Assembly (NCBI RefSeq): GCF_009914755.1
Contig: NC_060929.1
Reading direction: 5' to 3' (one strand)
DNA: 64,000 nucleotides
DNA from: the human T2T-CHM13v2.0 reference genome, Homo sapiens
Shown: one piece after another, positions 48,690-55,360 of the stretch
Layout: every line of letters begins with the position of its first letter
How positions within the stretch are numbered: the stretch's first letter is position 1
Notes under the pieces: generated by a model
The model's input: the letters and a program-made list of their open reading frames with translations, nothing else
What the model was told of the DNA's origin: nothing
Databases searched by the model: none
Translations under genes and position numbers: made by a program

Positions 48690-48781
48690 GGGTGATTCTG
48701 ACATAGGTAAAGCAACCTCCAATCAGAGAGAAGCCTCTGAAGTCTGACTGTGACATGTCTCTATAAAGATGAGCACTCCCA
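48690..48781 (+). promoter_or_regulatory. Putative orphaned H2B.L promoter (CCAAT 48719-48723, TATAAA 48762-48767)
   Basis: Removing the L1 and one TSD copy places TATAAA ~78 bp upstream of the H2B.L ATG, with CCAAT ~40 bp further upstream. Confidence 0.6.
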
Positions 48782-49784
48782 GCAGGGAGGTTCCAAGATG
48801 GCTGAATAGGAACAGCTCCAGTCTGCAGCTCCCAGCATGAGCGATGCAGAAGACGTGTGTTTTCTGCATTTCCAACTGAGGTACTCGGTTCATCTCACTG
48901 GGGCTTGTCAGATAGTGGGTGCAGCACACAGAGCAGAGTGGGGCATCGCCTCACCCAGGAAGCACAAGGGGTCCCGGAATTCCCTTTCCTAGCAAAGGGA
49001 AGCCGTGACTGATGGTACCTGGAAAATCAGAACACTCCCACCCTAATACTGCGCTTTTCCAACAGCCTTAGCAAATGGCACACGAGGAGATTATATCCTG
49101 TGCCTGGCTCAGAGGATCCTACACCCACGGAGCCTCGCTCACTGCTAGCACAGCAATCTGAGATCAAACTGCAAGGTGGCAGCAAGGCTGGGGGAGGAGC
49201 ATCCGCCATTGCTGAGGCTTGAGTAGGTAAACAAAGTGGCCTGGAAGCTCGAACTGGGTGGAGCCCACAACAGCTCAAGGAGGCCTGCCTGCCTATGTAG
49301 ACTCCCCCTCTGGGGGCAGGGCATAGTCGAACAAAAGGCAGCAGAAACTTCTGCAGACTTAAACATCCCTGTCTGACACCTTTGAAGAGAATAGTGGTTC
49401 TCCCAGCACAGAGTTTGAGATCTGAGAATGGACAGACTGCCTCCTCAAGTGGGTCCCTGACCCCCGAGTAGCCTAACTGGGAGACACCTCCCAGTAGGGG
49501 CTGACTGACACCTCATACAGCTGGTTGCCCCTCTGAGACGAAGCTTCCAGAGGAAGGATCAGGCAGCAACATCTGCCGTTCTGCAATATTTGCTGTTCTG
49601 CAGCCTCCGCTGGTGATACCCAGGCAAACAGGGTCTGGAGTGGACCTCCAGCAAACTCTAACAGACCTGCAGCTGAGGGTCCTGACTGTTAGAAGGAAAA
49701 CTAACAAACAGAAAGGACATCCGCACCAAAACCCCATCTGTCCATCACCATCATCAAAGACCAAAGATAGATAAAACCACAAAG

Positions 49785-50807
49785 ATGGGGAGAAATCAGA
49801 GCAGAAAAGCTGAAAATTCTAAAAATCAGAGCACCTCTTCTCCTCCAAAGGAATGCAGCTCCTCACCAGCAATGGAACAAAGCTGGACAGAGAATGACTT
49901 TGACAAGCTGAGAGAAGGCTTCAGACGATCGGTAATAACAAACTTCTCCAAGCTAAAGGAGCATGTTCTAACCCATCACAAAGAAGCTAAAAACCTTGAA
50001 AAAAGATGAGAAGAATGGCTAACTACAATCAACAGTGTAGAGAAGTCCTTAAATGACCTGATGGAGCTGAAAACCATGGCACGAGAACTATGTGATGCAT
50101 GCACAATCTTCAGTAGCCGGTTCAATCAACTGGAAGAAAGGATATCAGTGATTGAAAATCAAATGAATGAAATGAAGTGAGAATGGAAGTTTAGAGAAAA
50201 AAGAATAAAAAGAAATGGACAAAGCCTCCAAGAATTATGGGACTATGTGAAAAGACCAAATCTACATCTGATTGGTGTACCTGAAAGTGATGGGGAGAAT
50301 GGAACCAAGTTGGAAAACACTCTGCAGGATATTATCCAGGAGAACTTCCCCAACCTAGCAAGTCAGGCCAACATTCAAATTCAGGAAATACAGAGAATGC
50401 CACAAAGATACTCCTTGAGAAGAGCAACTCCAAGACACATAATTGTCAGATTCACCAAAGTTGAAATGAAGGAAAAAAATGTTAAGGGCAGCCAGAGAGA
50501 AAGGTTGGGCTACCCACAAAGGGAAGCCCAACAGACTAACAGCAGATCTCTCAGCAGAAACTCTACAAGTCAGAAGAGAGTGGGAGCCAATATTCAACAT
50601 TGTTAAAGAAAAGAATTTTCAACCCAGAATTTCATATCCAGCCAAACTAAGCTTCCTAAATGAAGGAGAAATAAAATCCTTTACAGACAAACAAATGCTG
50701 AGAGGTTTTGTCACCACCAGGCCTGCCTTACAAGAGCTCCTGAAGGAAGCACTAAACATGGAAAGGAACAACCAGTACCAGCCACTGCAAAACATGCCAA
50801 ATTGTAA
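49785..50807 (+). pseudogene. L1 ORF1p remnant (stops and frameshifts)
   Basis: MGRNQSRKAENSKNQ..; KRPNLHLIGVPE; NFQPRISYPAKLSF, spread over separate frames. Confidence 0.92.
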
Positions 50808-50870
50808 AGACCATCAAGGCTAGGAAGAAACTGCATCAACTATCGAGCAAAATAACCAGCTAACATCATA

Positions 50871-53800: not shown

Positions 53801-54686
53801 GGCAATACCATTCAGGACATAGGCATGGGAAAGGACTTCATGACTAAAACACCGAAAGCCATGGCAACAAAAGACAAAATTGACAAATGGGATCTCATTA
53901 AAATAAAGAGCTTCTGCACAGCAACAGAAACTACCATCAGAGTGAACAGGCAACCCACAGAATGGGAGAAAAGTTTTGCAATCTACGAATCTGACAAAGG
54001 GCTAATATCCAGAATCTACAAAGAACTTAAACAAATTTACAAGAAAAAAATCAAACAACCCCATCAAAAAGTGGGCAAAGGATATGAACAGATACTTCTC
54101 AAAAGAAGACATTTATGCAGCCAACAGACACATGAAAAAATATTCATCATCACTGGCCATCAGAGAAATGCAAATCAAAACCACAATGAGATACCATCTC
54201 ACACCAGTTAGAATGGTGATCATTAAAAAGTCAGGAAACAACAGGTGCTGGAGAGGATGTGGAGAAATAGGAACGCTTTTACACTGCTGGTGGGACTGTA
54301 AACTAGTTCAACCACTGTGGAAGACAGTGTGGCGATTCCTCAAGAATCTAGAACTAGAAATACCTTTTGACCCAGCCATCCCATTACTGGGCATATACCC
54401 ATAGGATTATAAATCATGCTGCTATAAAGACACATGCACATGTATGTTTATTGTGGCACTATTCACAATAGCAAAGACTTGGAACCAACCCAAATGTCCA
54501 TCAATGATAGACTGGATTAAGAAATTGTGGCACATATACACCATGGAATACTATGTAGCCATAAAAAATGATGAGTTCATGTCCTTTGTAGGGACATGGA
54601 TGAAGCTGGAAACCATCATTCTGAGCAAACTATCACAAGGATAGAAAACCAAACACCACATGTTCTCACTCACAGTTCGGAATTGA
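50871..54686 (+). pseudogene. L1 ORF2p (endonuclease/RT) remnant (stops and frameshifts)
   Basis: [41 protein letters not shown]; split into many ORFs. Confidence 0.95.
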
Positions 54687-54983
54687 ACAATGAGAACAGT
54701 TGGACACAGGGTGGGGAACATCACACACCGGGGCCTGTCGTGGGGTGGGGGGACGGGGGAGGGATAGCATTAGGAGATATACCTAATGAAAATGATGAAT
54801 TAATGGGTGCAGCACACCAACATGGCACATGTATACATATGTAACAAACCTGCACGTTGTGCACATGTACCCTAGAACTTAGAGTATAATAATAATAATA
54901 ATAATAATAAAGATGAGCACTCCCACCTATTCTTGGGCCCTTCTCCTCTCCATTCATAACTGATCAGAGGAACAACATCCACA

Positions 54984-55360
54984 ATGGCTAGGTCCAGCAC
55001 CAAAAAGTATAAGTACTCCAAAAGACATCAAACCCCAACCTCCAGAAAGAAAGCAAAGAAAGCATATTCCAGCATTGATTTTGGCCATGGAAATTACTCA
55101 TTCTTTGTAAACAAGGTCCTAAAGGAAGTGGTGCCCTGTAGAGGCATATCATCTCGCACTTTAGACCTCATGAACGCTCTGATTAACTTCTTATTTCAAC
55201 ACATTGCCATAAAAGCTTACAGGCTGATGTATTCTAGAAATCGCTGTACTCTCCCCCTGAAGATATCCTGAAGGCAGTGTATTTGCTGTTGCCTCAGAAA
55301 ACAGCTAACTATGCAGCGGCTTTTGGAAGTGAAGTGGTCCACAGATATGTCCACTCCTAA
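54984..55360 (+). pseudogene. H2BL1: Histone variant H2B.L (subH2B/SubH2Bv), single exon, frameshifted by a 1-bp deletion at 55253/55254
   Basis: Frame 1 gives MARSSTKK..NYSFFVNKVLKEVVPCRGISSRTLDLMNALINFLFQHIA..LMYSRNRCTL. The shifted frame continues PEDILKAVYLLLPQKTANYAAAFGSEVVHRYVHS*, a divergent H2B fold matching recalled bovine SubH2Bv motifs (VLKEVVP..GISSRT..RCTLTPEDI.KAVYLLLP). Confidence 0.9.

What the first reader, a model, noticed from the sequence alone, without database searches (positions are those of the whole stretch)
48690..55360. Full-length L1 inserted exactly in the TATA box of the sperm histone H2B.L promoter
Seen: the 19-bp TSD ataaagatgagcactccca overlaps TATAAA at 48762-48767. 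The reconstructed empty site reads CCAAT..(~40 bp)..cTATAAAgatgagcactcccacc..ccacaATG, a compact CCAAT+TATA promoter ~78 bp from the ATG. After insertion the ORF keeps only 'aataaag' behind an L1 tail, and the CCAAT/TATA elements sit 6.1 kb away in front of the L1 5'UTR. Known: the L1 endonuclease prefers TT/AAAA-like sites, and H2B.L is germline-expressed. Inference: promoter disruption may have been the first hit in loss of this gene, before the frameshift, and the orphan promoter could drive the L1 in testis.
Basis: partly seen in the sequence, partly recalled or inferred. Interest (0 to 1): 0.8.

Follow-up and report, generated by a model that had tools for sequence, protein, structure and literature searches.

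The report
Old L1 splits H2B.L pseudogene promoter
A dead 6.1-kb L1 retrotransposon landed inside the likely TATA box of a sperm histone gene long before that gene's reading frame broke, which may explain why humans do not express it.

Summary
An exact 19-bp target-site duplication (48763-48781 and 54907-54925) brackets a full-length, sense-strand L1 (48782-54906). The upstream copy overlaps the only TATAAA (48762). In the rebuilt empty site CCAATCAG lies 43 bp before TATAAA, and TATAAA lies 78 bp before the H2BL1P ATG.

The L1 is dead: ORF1 has two stops and a frameshift, and ORF2 is in pieces. A published data set labels this very element L1PA5. It carries the ancestral 9-nt ORF1 tripeptide. 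It is about 3-4% diverged, like its nearest copies.

L1PA5 was active around the human-rhesus ancestor, roughly 20-27 My ago. So the insertion predates the ~9 My Homininae frameshift reported by Raman et al. 2022. "L1 first" is supported.

"First hit in the loss of the gene" is only plausible. Orangutan and gibbon keep open ORFs and very probably carry the L1. That this motif is the real promoter could not be tested without orthologues or transcription-start data.

The held literature does not link H2B.L with this L1. Raman et al. left the missing human expression unexplained. This is an ordinary kind of event at a specific, testable locus.

The parts
48520..48556 (-). Two octamer-like words (TGCAAAT at 48520 and 48550; 7 of 8 bases of the H2B-type octamer, inverted), about 210-240 bp upstream of TATAAA. 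A possible leftover upstream promoter element.
   Evidence: 2 in this stretch, against 0.08 expected per 300 bp on either strand. The octamer as an H2B hallmark is recalled, not tested.
48719..48726 (+). CCAATCAG, a putative CCAAT box of the H2B.L promoter, now 6.1 kb from the ORF.
   Evidence: the only CCAAT in 48500-48800, and CCAATCAG occurs once in 64 kb.
48762..48767 (+). TATAAA, the putative TATA box. Left intact on the upstream side and now followed by 14 native bases and the L1 5' end.
   Evidence: It lies 78 bp before the ATG in the rebuilt empty site.
48763..48781 (+). 5' copy of the target-site duplication (19 bp).
   Evidence: an exact match to 54907-54925 with no extension on either side.
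48782..54906 (+). Full-length L1PA5 of the ancestral ORF1 type. 5'UTR 48782-49784, ORF1 about 49785-50810, ORF2 about 50871-54700, 3'UTR, and an (AAT)n tail at about 54888-54906. Both ORFs are broken.
   Evidence: (Tnp_22_dsRBD E 1.3e-40, Exo_endo_phos, RVT_1 E 5.3e-29).
49925..49933 (+). Approximate place of the 9-nt GGTAATAAC (tripeptide) in ORF1, which marks ancestral L1PA5/L1PA6/L1PA7.
   Evidence: present in the element and in 8 of 8 nearest copies shown, absent from 10 of 10 primer-typed younger copies. Rule taken from PMC7449397. The coordinates are my estimate from the ORF1 start.
54907..54925 (+). 3' copy of the target-site duplication. It leaves aATAAAG directly behind the L1 tail.
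54926..54983 (+). 58 bp of native leader between the TSD and the ATG, which would hold the predicted transcription start. CTATTCT at 54927-54933 resembles an initiator.
   Evidence: The initiator likeness is my reading of the letters and is not tested.
54984..55360 (+). H2BL1P, the H2B.L (subH2B) histone pseudogene. One C is missing from the C-run 55253-55257, giving a premature TGA at 55269-55271. The original stop is at 55358-55360.
   Evidence: 95-aa ORF; Pfam Histone E 2.4e-12; orangutan has six C where human has five.

Best explanation
A full-length L1PA5 of the older ORF1 type inserted by target-primed reverse transcription. The L1 endonuclease nicked the bottom strand inside the T-rich complement of TATAAA, 78 bp upstream of the H2B.L start codon. 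This happened roughly 20-27 million years ago, on the stem of the apes or of the catarrhines.

The insertion left CCAAT, TATAAA and all upstream sequence in front of the L1 5'UTR. The ORF kept only an ATAAAG remnant behind the L1 tail plus 58 bp of leader.

Shown: the anatomy, the subfamily, and that the insertion is older than the ~9 My frameshift. Inferred: that the split promoter lowered or abolished spermatid transcription, that selection on the ORF then relaxed, and that the one-base deletion later fixed in the African-ape ancestor. On this reading the L1 is the 'nonfunctional regulatory sequence' that Raman et al. 2022 suspected behind the missing human testis RNA.
For: The exact 19-bp TSD, the tail and the co-linear 5' end show a real insertion. 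L1 domains are present and the ORFs are broken.

Subfamily: the record hg18_L1PA5_chr5_72059222_72065317 in the S1 Data of PMC7449397 has this element's ORF1 start, including its private changes. The 9-nt tripeptide is present, which that paper assigns to ancestral L1Pa5, L1Pa6 and L1Pa7.

Age: the terminal branch is 3.0% over 758 columns at the 3' end and 4.3% over 3540 columns at the 5' end. Non-CpG values are 2.5% and 3.0%. These equal the medians of its nearest copies. Pairwise distance is 6.0% to 29 copies, against 5.7% among those copies. L1Pa5 peaked ~25 MYA. L1PA5 was active in the human-rhesus ancestor. The L1PA6 boundary is 26.8 My.

The frameshift is shared by human, chimpanzee, bonobo and gorilla only, ~9 Ma. 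No H2B.L RNA is found in human testis, with the cause left open.

The CCAAT-TATA-ATG layout is expected at 0.45-0.5% of random positions in this window. A hand count of human against orangutan ORF gives 19 differences in 375 nt, 12 replacement and 7 silent. This is not distinguishable from neutrality (from the letters).
Against: No orthologous locus could be read, so presence of the L1 in other primates is inferred from age alone. No TSS, CAGE or conservation evidence shows that this TATAAA is the H2B.L promoter.

Orangutan, two gibbons, macaques and a leaf monkey keep open ORFs. Rhesus testis still has a low level of transcript. If they carry the L1, the gene was not simply killed by it.

Raman et al. 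report positive selection, not plain decay, in simian H2B.L, and at least five independent losses in simians, some perhaps in lineages without this L1.

On the human branch my hand count gives 5 silent and 4 replacement changes, which does not look like free drift. The ORF side keeps ATAAAG and an initiator-like word, so a weak core promoter may survive.

The age depends on the clock: about 18 My at 0.17%/My (recalled from Khan 2006, not held) to about 30 My at about 0.1%/My.
Confidence: 0.55

Rival explanations
1. The L1 was tolerated. H2B.L went on being transcribed after the insertion, from the duplicated ATAAAG plus initiator and leader, from another start, or from L1 read-through. It stayed under selection for 10 My or more. 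Its loss in African apes is an unrelated later event, part of the general decline of H2B.L in simians.
For: Orangutan, gibbons and Old World monkeys have open ORFs, and rhesus has low but detectable testis RNA. Raman et al. find purifying plus positive selection in simian H2B.L and at least five independent losses. The human branch has 5 silent and 4 replacement changes by hand count. The 3' TSD copy preserves six of the seven bases of TATAAAG.
Against: A 6.1-kb separation from CCAAT and all upstream elements usually weakens a compact promoter; this is established general knowledge, not tested here. There is no H2B.L RNA in human testis although the ORF is one base from intact. L1PA5 5' ends recruit KAP1, H3K9me3 and DNA methylation. 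Human-orangutan ORF divergence is 5.1%, with 12 replacement and 7 silent changes, and shows no clear constraint (hand count).
Confidence: 0.3
2. The CCAAT/TATAAA pair is not the H2B.L promoter. The L1 landed in inert upstream DNA, drawn only by an A/T-rich endonuclease site, and has no bearing on expression.
For: TATAAA is common here, at 0.70 per kb per strand. L1 endonuclease prefers such sites (recalled). No TSS or conservation data are available. The octamer typical of H2B promoters is not between CCAAT and TATA.
Against: The joint CCAAT-TATA-ATG geometry occurs at only 0.45-0.5% of random positions. The implied 5'UTR of about 50 nt fits short histone leaders (recalled). Only 58 bp of native DNA remain upstream of the ATG, so any promoter must have been cut or displaced by the insertion.
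Confidence: 0.12
3. The L1 inserted after the gene was already dead, so it is irrelevant to the loss.
For: None found, beyond the general uncertainty of molecular clocks.
Against: The element is L1PA5 with the ancestral tripeptide. It is 3-4% diverged, against 0.56% pairwise among four L1HS-type copies. The L1HS-type primers each miss it by 4 mismatches. A date after ~9 Ma would require an L1PA2/L1HS-type element.
Confidence: 0.03

Closest known systems
H2B.L (subH2B) pseudogenization in primates, Raman et al. 2022 (PMC8857922; passages and supplement text read)
   Same: Same gene and same frameshift, shared by Homininae at ~9 Ma. Same observation that human testis lacks the transcript.
   Different: That paper treats only the ORF. 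Its main text has no 'TATA' and its held supplement text has no 'LINE-1', 'promoter' or 'TATA'. It leaves open whether regulatory sequences are broken. Here a specific, older regulatory lesion is described.
L1PA5 family, ancestral ORF1 form (Furano et al. 2020, PMC7449397; Fernandes et al. 2020, PMC7110667; passages read)
   Same: The element is in their L1PA5 ORF1 data set. It carries the tripeptide of the ancestral form and is full length.
   Different: Those studies use it only as one of thousands of fossil copies. Its position in a gene promoter is not discussed.
KAP1/KRAB-ZFP silencing of L1PA3-6 5' ends, spreading to an adjacent promoter (Castro-Diaz et al. 2014, PMC4083085; passages read)
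   Same: An L1PA5 5'UTR sits directly beside a cellular promoter, the arrangement their reporter assay mimics.
   Different: Their data are from embryonic stem cells and reporters. Binding at this copy and any effect in spermatids were not examined.
Retrotransposon insertions that disable genes or promoters (general class; recalled, no call)
   Same: A TPRT insertion with a TSD at an A/T-rich site that displaces regulatory DNA.
   Different: Here the TSD itself duplicates most of the TATA box. Both sides keep a TATA-like word, and the intact box now faces the L1 5' end.

Membership tests
L1 insertion by target-primed reverse transcription | Target-site duplication flanking the element | tested here: met
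   19 of 19 bases identical at 48763-48781 and 54907-54925.
L1 insertion by target-primed reverse transcription | A-rich 3' tail | tested here: met
   An (AAT)n run at about 54888-54906, directly before the 3' TSD. I read it as a decayed poly(A), which is inference.
L1 insertion by target-primed reverse transcription | Endonuclease-type target (bottom strand TTTT/AA-like; consensus recalled) | tested here: inconclusive
   The bottom strand reads ATCTTTAT/AGAGAC at the nick implied by a 19-bp TSD, or CTTT/AT if the TSD is shorter. This is a variant of the consensus, not the consensus itself.
L1 insertion by target-primed reverse transcription | ORF1 and ORF2 (endonuclease and reverse transcriptase) domains | tested here: met
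   Tnp_22_dsRBD E 1.3e-40, Transposase_22, Exo_endo_phos E 2.2e-07, RVT_1 E 5.3e-29.
L1PA5, ancestral ORF1 type | Annotated as L1PA5 | tested here: met
   The record hg18_L1PA5_chr5_72059222_72065317 matches the element's ORF1 start, including private variants, by eye over about 240 nt. My predicted hg18 place was about 350 bp off.
L1PA5, ancestral ORF1 type | Tripeptide two residues before the coiled coil (present in ancestral L1Pa5, L1Pa6 and L1Pa7; absent from modern L1Pa5 to L1Pa1) | tested here: met
   The 9-nt insert is present in the element and in 8 of 8 cohort copies shown. It is absent from 10 of 10 copies typed by published L1HS, L1PA3 and L1PA4 primers. Rule.
L1PA5, ancestral ORF1 type | Divergence typical of the family | tested here: inconclusive
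   The terminal branch is 3.0-4.3%, equal to the medians of its nearest copies. No labelled L1PA4/5/6 reference sets could be fetched. Four randomly typed copies were too heterogeneous to calibrate.
H2B.L (subH2B) histone variant gene or pseudogene | Histone fold and orthology to primate H2B.L | tested here: met
   Pfam Histone E 2.4e-12 on the 95-aa ORF. It is co-linear by eye with the orangutan, gibbon and macaque H2B.L in Raman's supplement. RefSeq names it H2BL1P (hub table).
H2B.L (subH2B) histone variant gene or pseudogene | Disabling lesion | tested here: met
   Five C at 55253-55257 where orangutan has six, and a premature stop at 55269-55271.
CCAAT + TATA core promoter of H2B.L | Motifs at promoter-like distances from the ATG | tested here: met
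   CCAAT to TATAAA 43 bp and TATAAA to ATG 78 bp in the rebuilt empty site. Chance is 0.45-0.5%.
CCAAT + TATA core promoter of H2B.L | Transcription start about 25-35 bp downstream, and conservation in orthologues | not testable with these tools
   No eukaryotic orthologue genomes, CAGE or RNA-seq are available. The supplement of PMC8857922 holds ORFs only.
Gene loss started by a transposon hit in the promoter | Insertion older than the coding lesion | tested here: met
   L1PA5, about 20-27 My, against a frameshift of ~9 Ma.
Gene loss started by a transposon hit in the promoter | Loss of expression and relaxed constraint begin at the insertion | not testable with these tools
   Only indirect evidence. 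There is no human testis RNA and low rhesus RNA. A hand count gives 12 replacement and 7 silent differences between human and orangutan.

The most novel reading that the evidence does not exclude
The L1PA5 insertion into the TATA box was the founding lesion of H2B.L decay in all apes, or in all catarrhines if it predates the rhesus split. On this reading the 'intact' H2B.L ORFs of orangutan and gibbons, used as references and in selection tests, are unexpressed relics. The low rhesus expression, the recurrent independent ORF losses, and part of the reported 'positive selection' are then consequences of one promoter hit 20-27 My ago.
Probability: 0.3. Interest if true: 0.55.

Novelty: new member of a known kind. 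Interest (0 to 1): 0.4.

Why it matters
Raman et al. 2022 noted that human H2B.L is one base from an open frame yet gives no testis RNA, and could not say why. An older L1 that cuts the likely core promoter offers a concrete, checkable cause.

It also raises a caution. ORF intactness in orangutan and gibbons may not mean a working gene, which would affect selection analyses that pool those sequences.

The case shows how the L1 endonuclease's taste for T-rich sites makes TATA boxes natural targets. It is still a single, ordinary transposon-in-promoter event at a gene already known to be dead in humans.

Tried and rejected

2. Khan et al. 2006, the source of the L1PA ages, is not held. Its ages are cited second-hand, or marked as recalled.

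3. Typing the element with published subfamily primers was ambiguous. L1HS primers had 4 mismatches each. The L1PA3 forward primer had 2 and the reverse 0. The L1PA4 primers had 2 and 1, and the L1PA5 primers 1 and 3. The 29 nearest copies showed the same mixed pattern. I had first read a Thr codon (ACG-type) as 'older than L1PA5', but 3 of 4 L1PA4-primer copies share it, so I dropped that reading.

A smaller set of 10 stretches settled the tripeptide question. For dating it was too small and too heterogeneous: pairwise distance among 4 copies ran 5-12%.

5. Rfam found no match at E <= 1 to any of its families in 48000-57000, so no histone stem-loop was found.

6. I searched for L1 offspring carrying H2BL1P as a 3' transduction, and for a second copy of the promoter piece. 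Only the locus itself was found, 1 of 1 candidates each time.

7. Insertion after pseudogenization is rejected on age.

8. A formal dN/dS test was not run, because the primate ORFs exist only as supplement text. I made a hand count instead and give it low weight.
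Full report
**The observation**

The 19-mer ATAAAGATGAGCACTCCCA occurs exactly twice in the window, at 48763-48781 and 54907-54925. The match does not extend by a single base on either side.

The upstream copy begins at the second base of TATAAA (48762-48767), the only TATAAA between 48500 and 48800. The only CCAAT in that stretch is at 48719, as CCAATCAG, an 8-mer found once in the 64 kb.

Removing the insert and one TSD copy gives CCAAT to TATAAA of 43 bp (start to start) and TATAAA to ATG of 78 bp. 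On the gene side the sequence now reads an (AAT)n run, then ATAAAG..., then 58 bp of native leader, then the ATG at 54984.

Because ATAAA continues the rhythm of the tail, the true TSD may be 14-19 bp. Either way the nick lies inside TATAAA.

**What the insert is**

The 6125 bp between the TSD copies are an L1 on the + strand, the same orientation as the histone ORF.
- Its translated pieces hit the L1 ORF1 domains (Tnp_22_dsRBD E 1.3e-40; Transposase_22), the endonuclease (Exo_endo_phos) and the reverse transcriptase (RVT_1 E 5.3e-29).
- Its first bases line up, within 13 nt, with the starts of 19 of 29 closely related genomic copies. It is therefore full length.
- It is dead. Against an L1HS-type copy, ORF1 shows two in-frame stops and a one-base insertion. 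ORF2 is split over at least seven ORF pieces in different frames.
- Both flanks are single-copy in the genome. It is a simple insertion into unique DNA, and there is no sign of offspring that carried the histone gene along.

**Which L1, and how old**

The nearest of 5,827 and 7,873 first-look candidates (40 scored each) are 93-95% identical at the 3' end and 90-93% over ORF1.

Over the 3' 2.1 kb the element is 6.0% from 29 neighbours, which are 5.7% from each other. FastTree gives it a terminal branch of 3.0% over 758 columns at the 3' end, and 4.3% over 3540 columns covering the 5'UTR, ORF1 and the start of ORF2. Without CpG columns the values are 2.5% and 3.0%. In each case this equals the median of its neighbours. 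It is a typical member of its cohort.

Published subfamily primers gave an ambiguous typing. Two other lines settled the question.
- Furano et al. 2020 state that modern L1Pa5 and all younger families lack a tripeptide just before the ORF1 coiled coil, which ancestral L1Pa5, L1Pa6 and L1Pa7 have. The element and 8 of 8 cohort copies shown carry the 9-nt insert. Ten of 10 copies typed by the L1HS, L1PA3 or L1PA4 primers lack it.
- The S1 Data of that paper contain a record named hg18_L1PA5_chr5_72059222_72065317. Its ORF1 start is this element letter for letter, including its private changes and its 3-nt deletion.

So the element is an L1PA5 of the ancestral ORF1 type.

For the age of that family I saw these passages:
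- L1Pa5 peak ~25 MYA, and L1Pa7-L1Pa3 at 30-10 MYA.
- L1PA4-6 at 30-18 Mya.
- L1PA6 boundary at 26.8 My.
- Over 78% of human L1PA6 were already present in the human-rhesus ancestor.

My own divergence figures translate to about 18 My at 0.17% per My (Khan 2006, recalled; paper not held). At about 0.1% per My (recalled genome-average rate) they give about 30 My. I take 20-27 My as the likely range.

My odds that the insertion is shared are about 95% with orangutan, about 85% with gibbons, and about even with Old World monkeys. These odds are inference; no orthologous locus could be read.

**The gene**

The ORF at 54984 encodes 95 residues with a histone fold (Pfam Histone, E 2.4e-12). It is co-linear with the primate H2B.L sequences in the supplement of Raman et al. 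2022.

Human has five C at 55253-55257 where orangutan has six. The frame then runs into TGA at 55269-55271, and the original stop is at 55358-55360.

Raman et al. (passages) report the following:
- The frameshift is shared by human, chimpanzee, bonobo and gorilla (~9 Ma).
- H2B.L was lost at least five separate times in simians.
- It is abundant in testis of other mammals but undetectable in human testis.
- Rhesus, with an open ORF, shows only low transcript levels.

Their main text has no 'TATA', and its 18 'line' and 2 'promoter' word-start hits were only partly shown to me. The held supplement text has no 'LINE-1', 'promoter' or 'TATA'.

No match to any Rfam family, and so no histone 3' stem-loop, was found in 48000-57000 at E <= 1. 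This fits a polyadenylated variant.

**Interpretation**

The L1 is older than the frameshift by 10 My or more. A date after ~9 Ma would need an L1PA2/L1HS-type element, which searches exclude.

That the CCAAT/TATA pair is the real promoter is plausible but untested. The geometry is found at 0.45-0.5% of random positions in this window. Only 58 native bases remain before the ATG, so whatever promoter the gene had was cut or displaced. Two inverted octamer-like words lie 210-240 bp further up.

Whether the insertion disabled the gene is open. For disabling:
- Human testis has no RNA although the ORF is almost intact.
- The L1 puts 6.1 kb between the ORF and all upstream elements.
- L1PA5 5' ends are mostly KAP1-bound and can silence a neighbouring promoter.
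- A hand count of human against orangutan ORFs gives 19 differences in 375 nt (12 replacement, 7 silent), with no clear constraint.

Against disabling:
- Orangutan, two gibbons and several Old World monkeys keep open frames.
- Rhesus keeps some expression.
- The human branch alone shows 5 silent and 4 replacement changes.
- The gene side retains ATAAAG and an initiator-like CTATTCT.

A rough model uses assumed, recalled rates of about 0.06 disabling mutations per My for a 375-nt ORF. It gives an open frame a half-life near 11 My. Survival in orangutan alone is unremarkable under that model. Survival in orangutan plus gibbons, and in monkeys if they carry the L1, would begin to argue for continued selection.

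The idea that the orphan promoter drove the L1 in testis has nothing for it. The predicted start would fall in the first ~10 nt of the L1, which is neat. But there is no transduced offspring, and the 5' end is of a heavily silenced type.

**Novelty**

The L1 is annotated, and this copy was used as an anonymous data point. The pseudogene and its frameshift are published.

I found no paper linking the two. The searches were 'H2B.L'+'histone'+'pseudogene' (11 papers), 'H2BL1P' (4), 'subH2B'+'promoter' (14), and 'H2B.L'+'LINE-1' (1 paper, a review seen only as a listing). The nomenclature paper's passages were also read.

Subscription journals and PDF supplements, for example Raman's Fig. S10 and S14, were not visible and could bear on this.

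The event is of a well-known kind. Its value is that it gives a specific answer to test for an explicitly open question, and a warning about treating open ape H2B.L ORFs as functional.

**Verdict**

Observation confirmed. Interpretation partly supported. New member of a known kind. Moderate interest.

Noticed in passing
window 55425-58500: An older L1 lies antisense just downstream of H2BL1P, so the tiny gene is boxed in by L1s on both sides. It is 77% identical to the L1PA5 over 2.4 kb (55622-58015), with a further piece from 58311. Its T-rich tail side sits at about 55425-55460, only 65-100 bp after the histone stop codon. There is no AATAAA or ATTAAA on the + strand between the stop and 56329.
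   Followed up: partly
window 48520-48556: Two TGCAAAT words lie 30 bp apart, 210-240 bp upstream of TATAAA. They match 7 of 8 bases of the octamer known from H2B promoters, inverted. About 0.08 are expected per 300 bp on either strand. They could be a remnant of the H2B-type promoter left upstream of the L1.
   Followed up: partly
window 48782-48935: The first ~154 nt of the L1 5'UTR are not in the hub's list of masked repeats, where masking starts at 48936. They are nevertheless co-linear with 19 of 29 full-length relatives. The repeat mask therefore understates the element and hides how closely it abuts the TATA box.
   Followed up: yes
window 54888-54906: The L1 tail is now an (AAT)n microsatellite rather than a plain A run. 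This blurs the 5' limit of the TSD by up to 5 nt.
   Followed up: yes
window 54984-55360, against supplement text of PMC8857922: By hand count the human and orangutan H2B.L ORFs differ at 19 of 375 sites (5.1%) plus the one-base deletion. This is above the ~3% genome average I recall. Several of the differences are at CpG sites.
   Followed up: partly
loci L067-L070 (G000 C1): Four copies that match the published L1PA4 forward primer exactly differ from each other by 5-12% over ORF1. Exact primer matches evidently pick up a very mixed set of elements.
   Followed up: no
window 46568-47305: The processed pseudogene RPL7P22 lies 1.4 kb upstream of the split promoter on the same strand (hub table). 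It was not examined.
   Followed up: no
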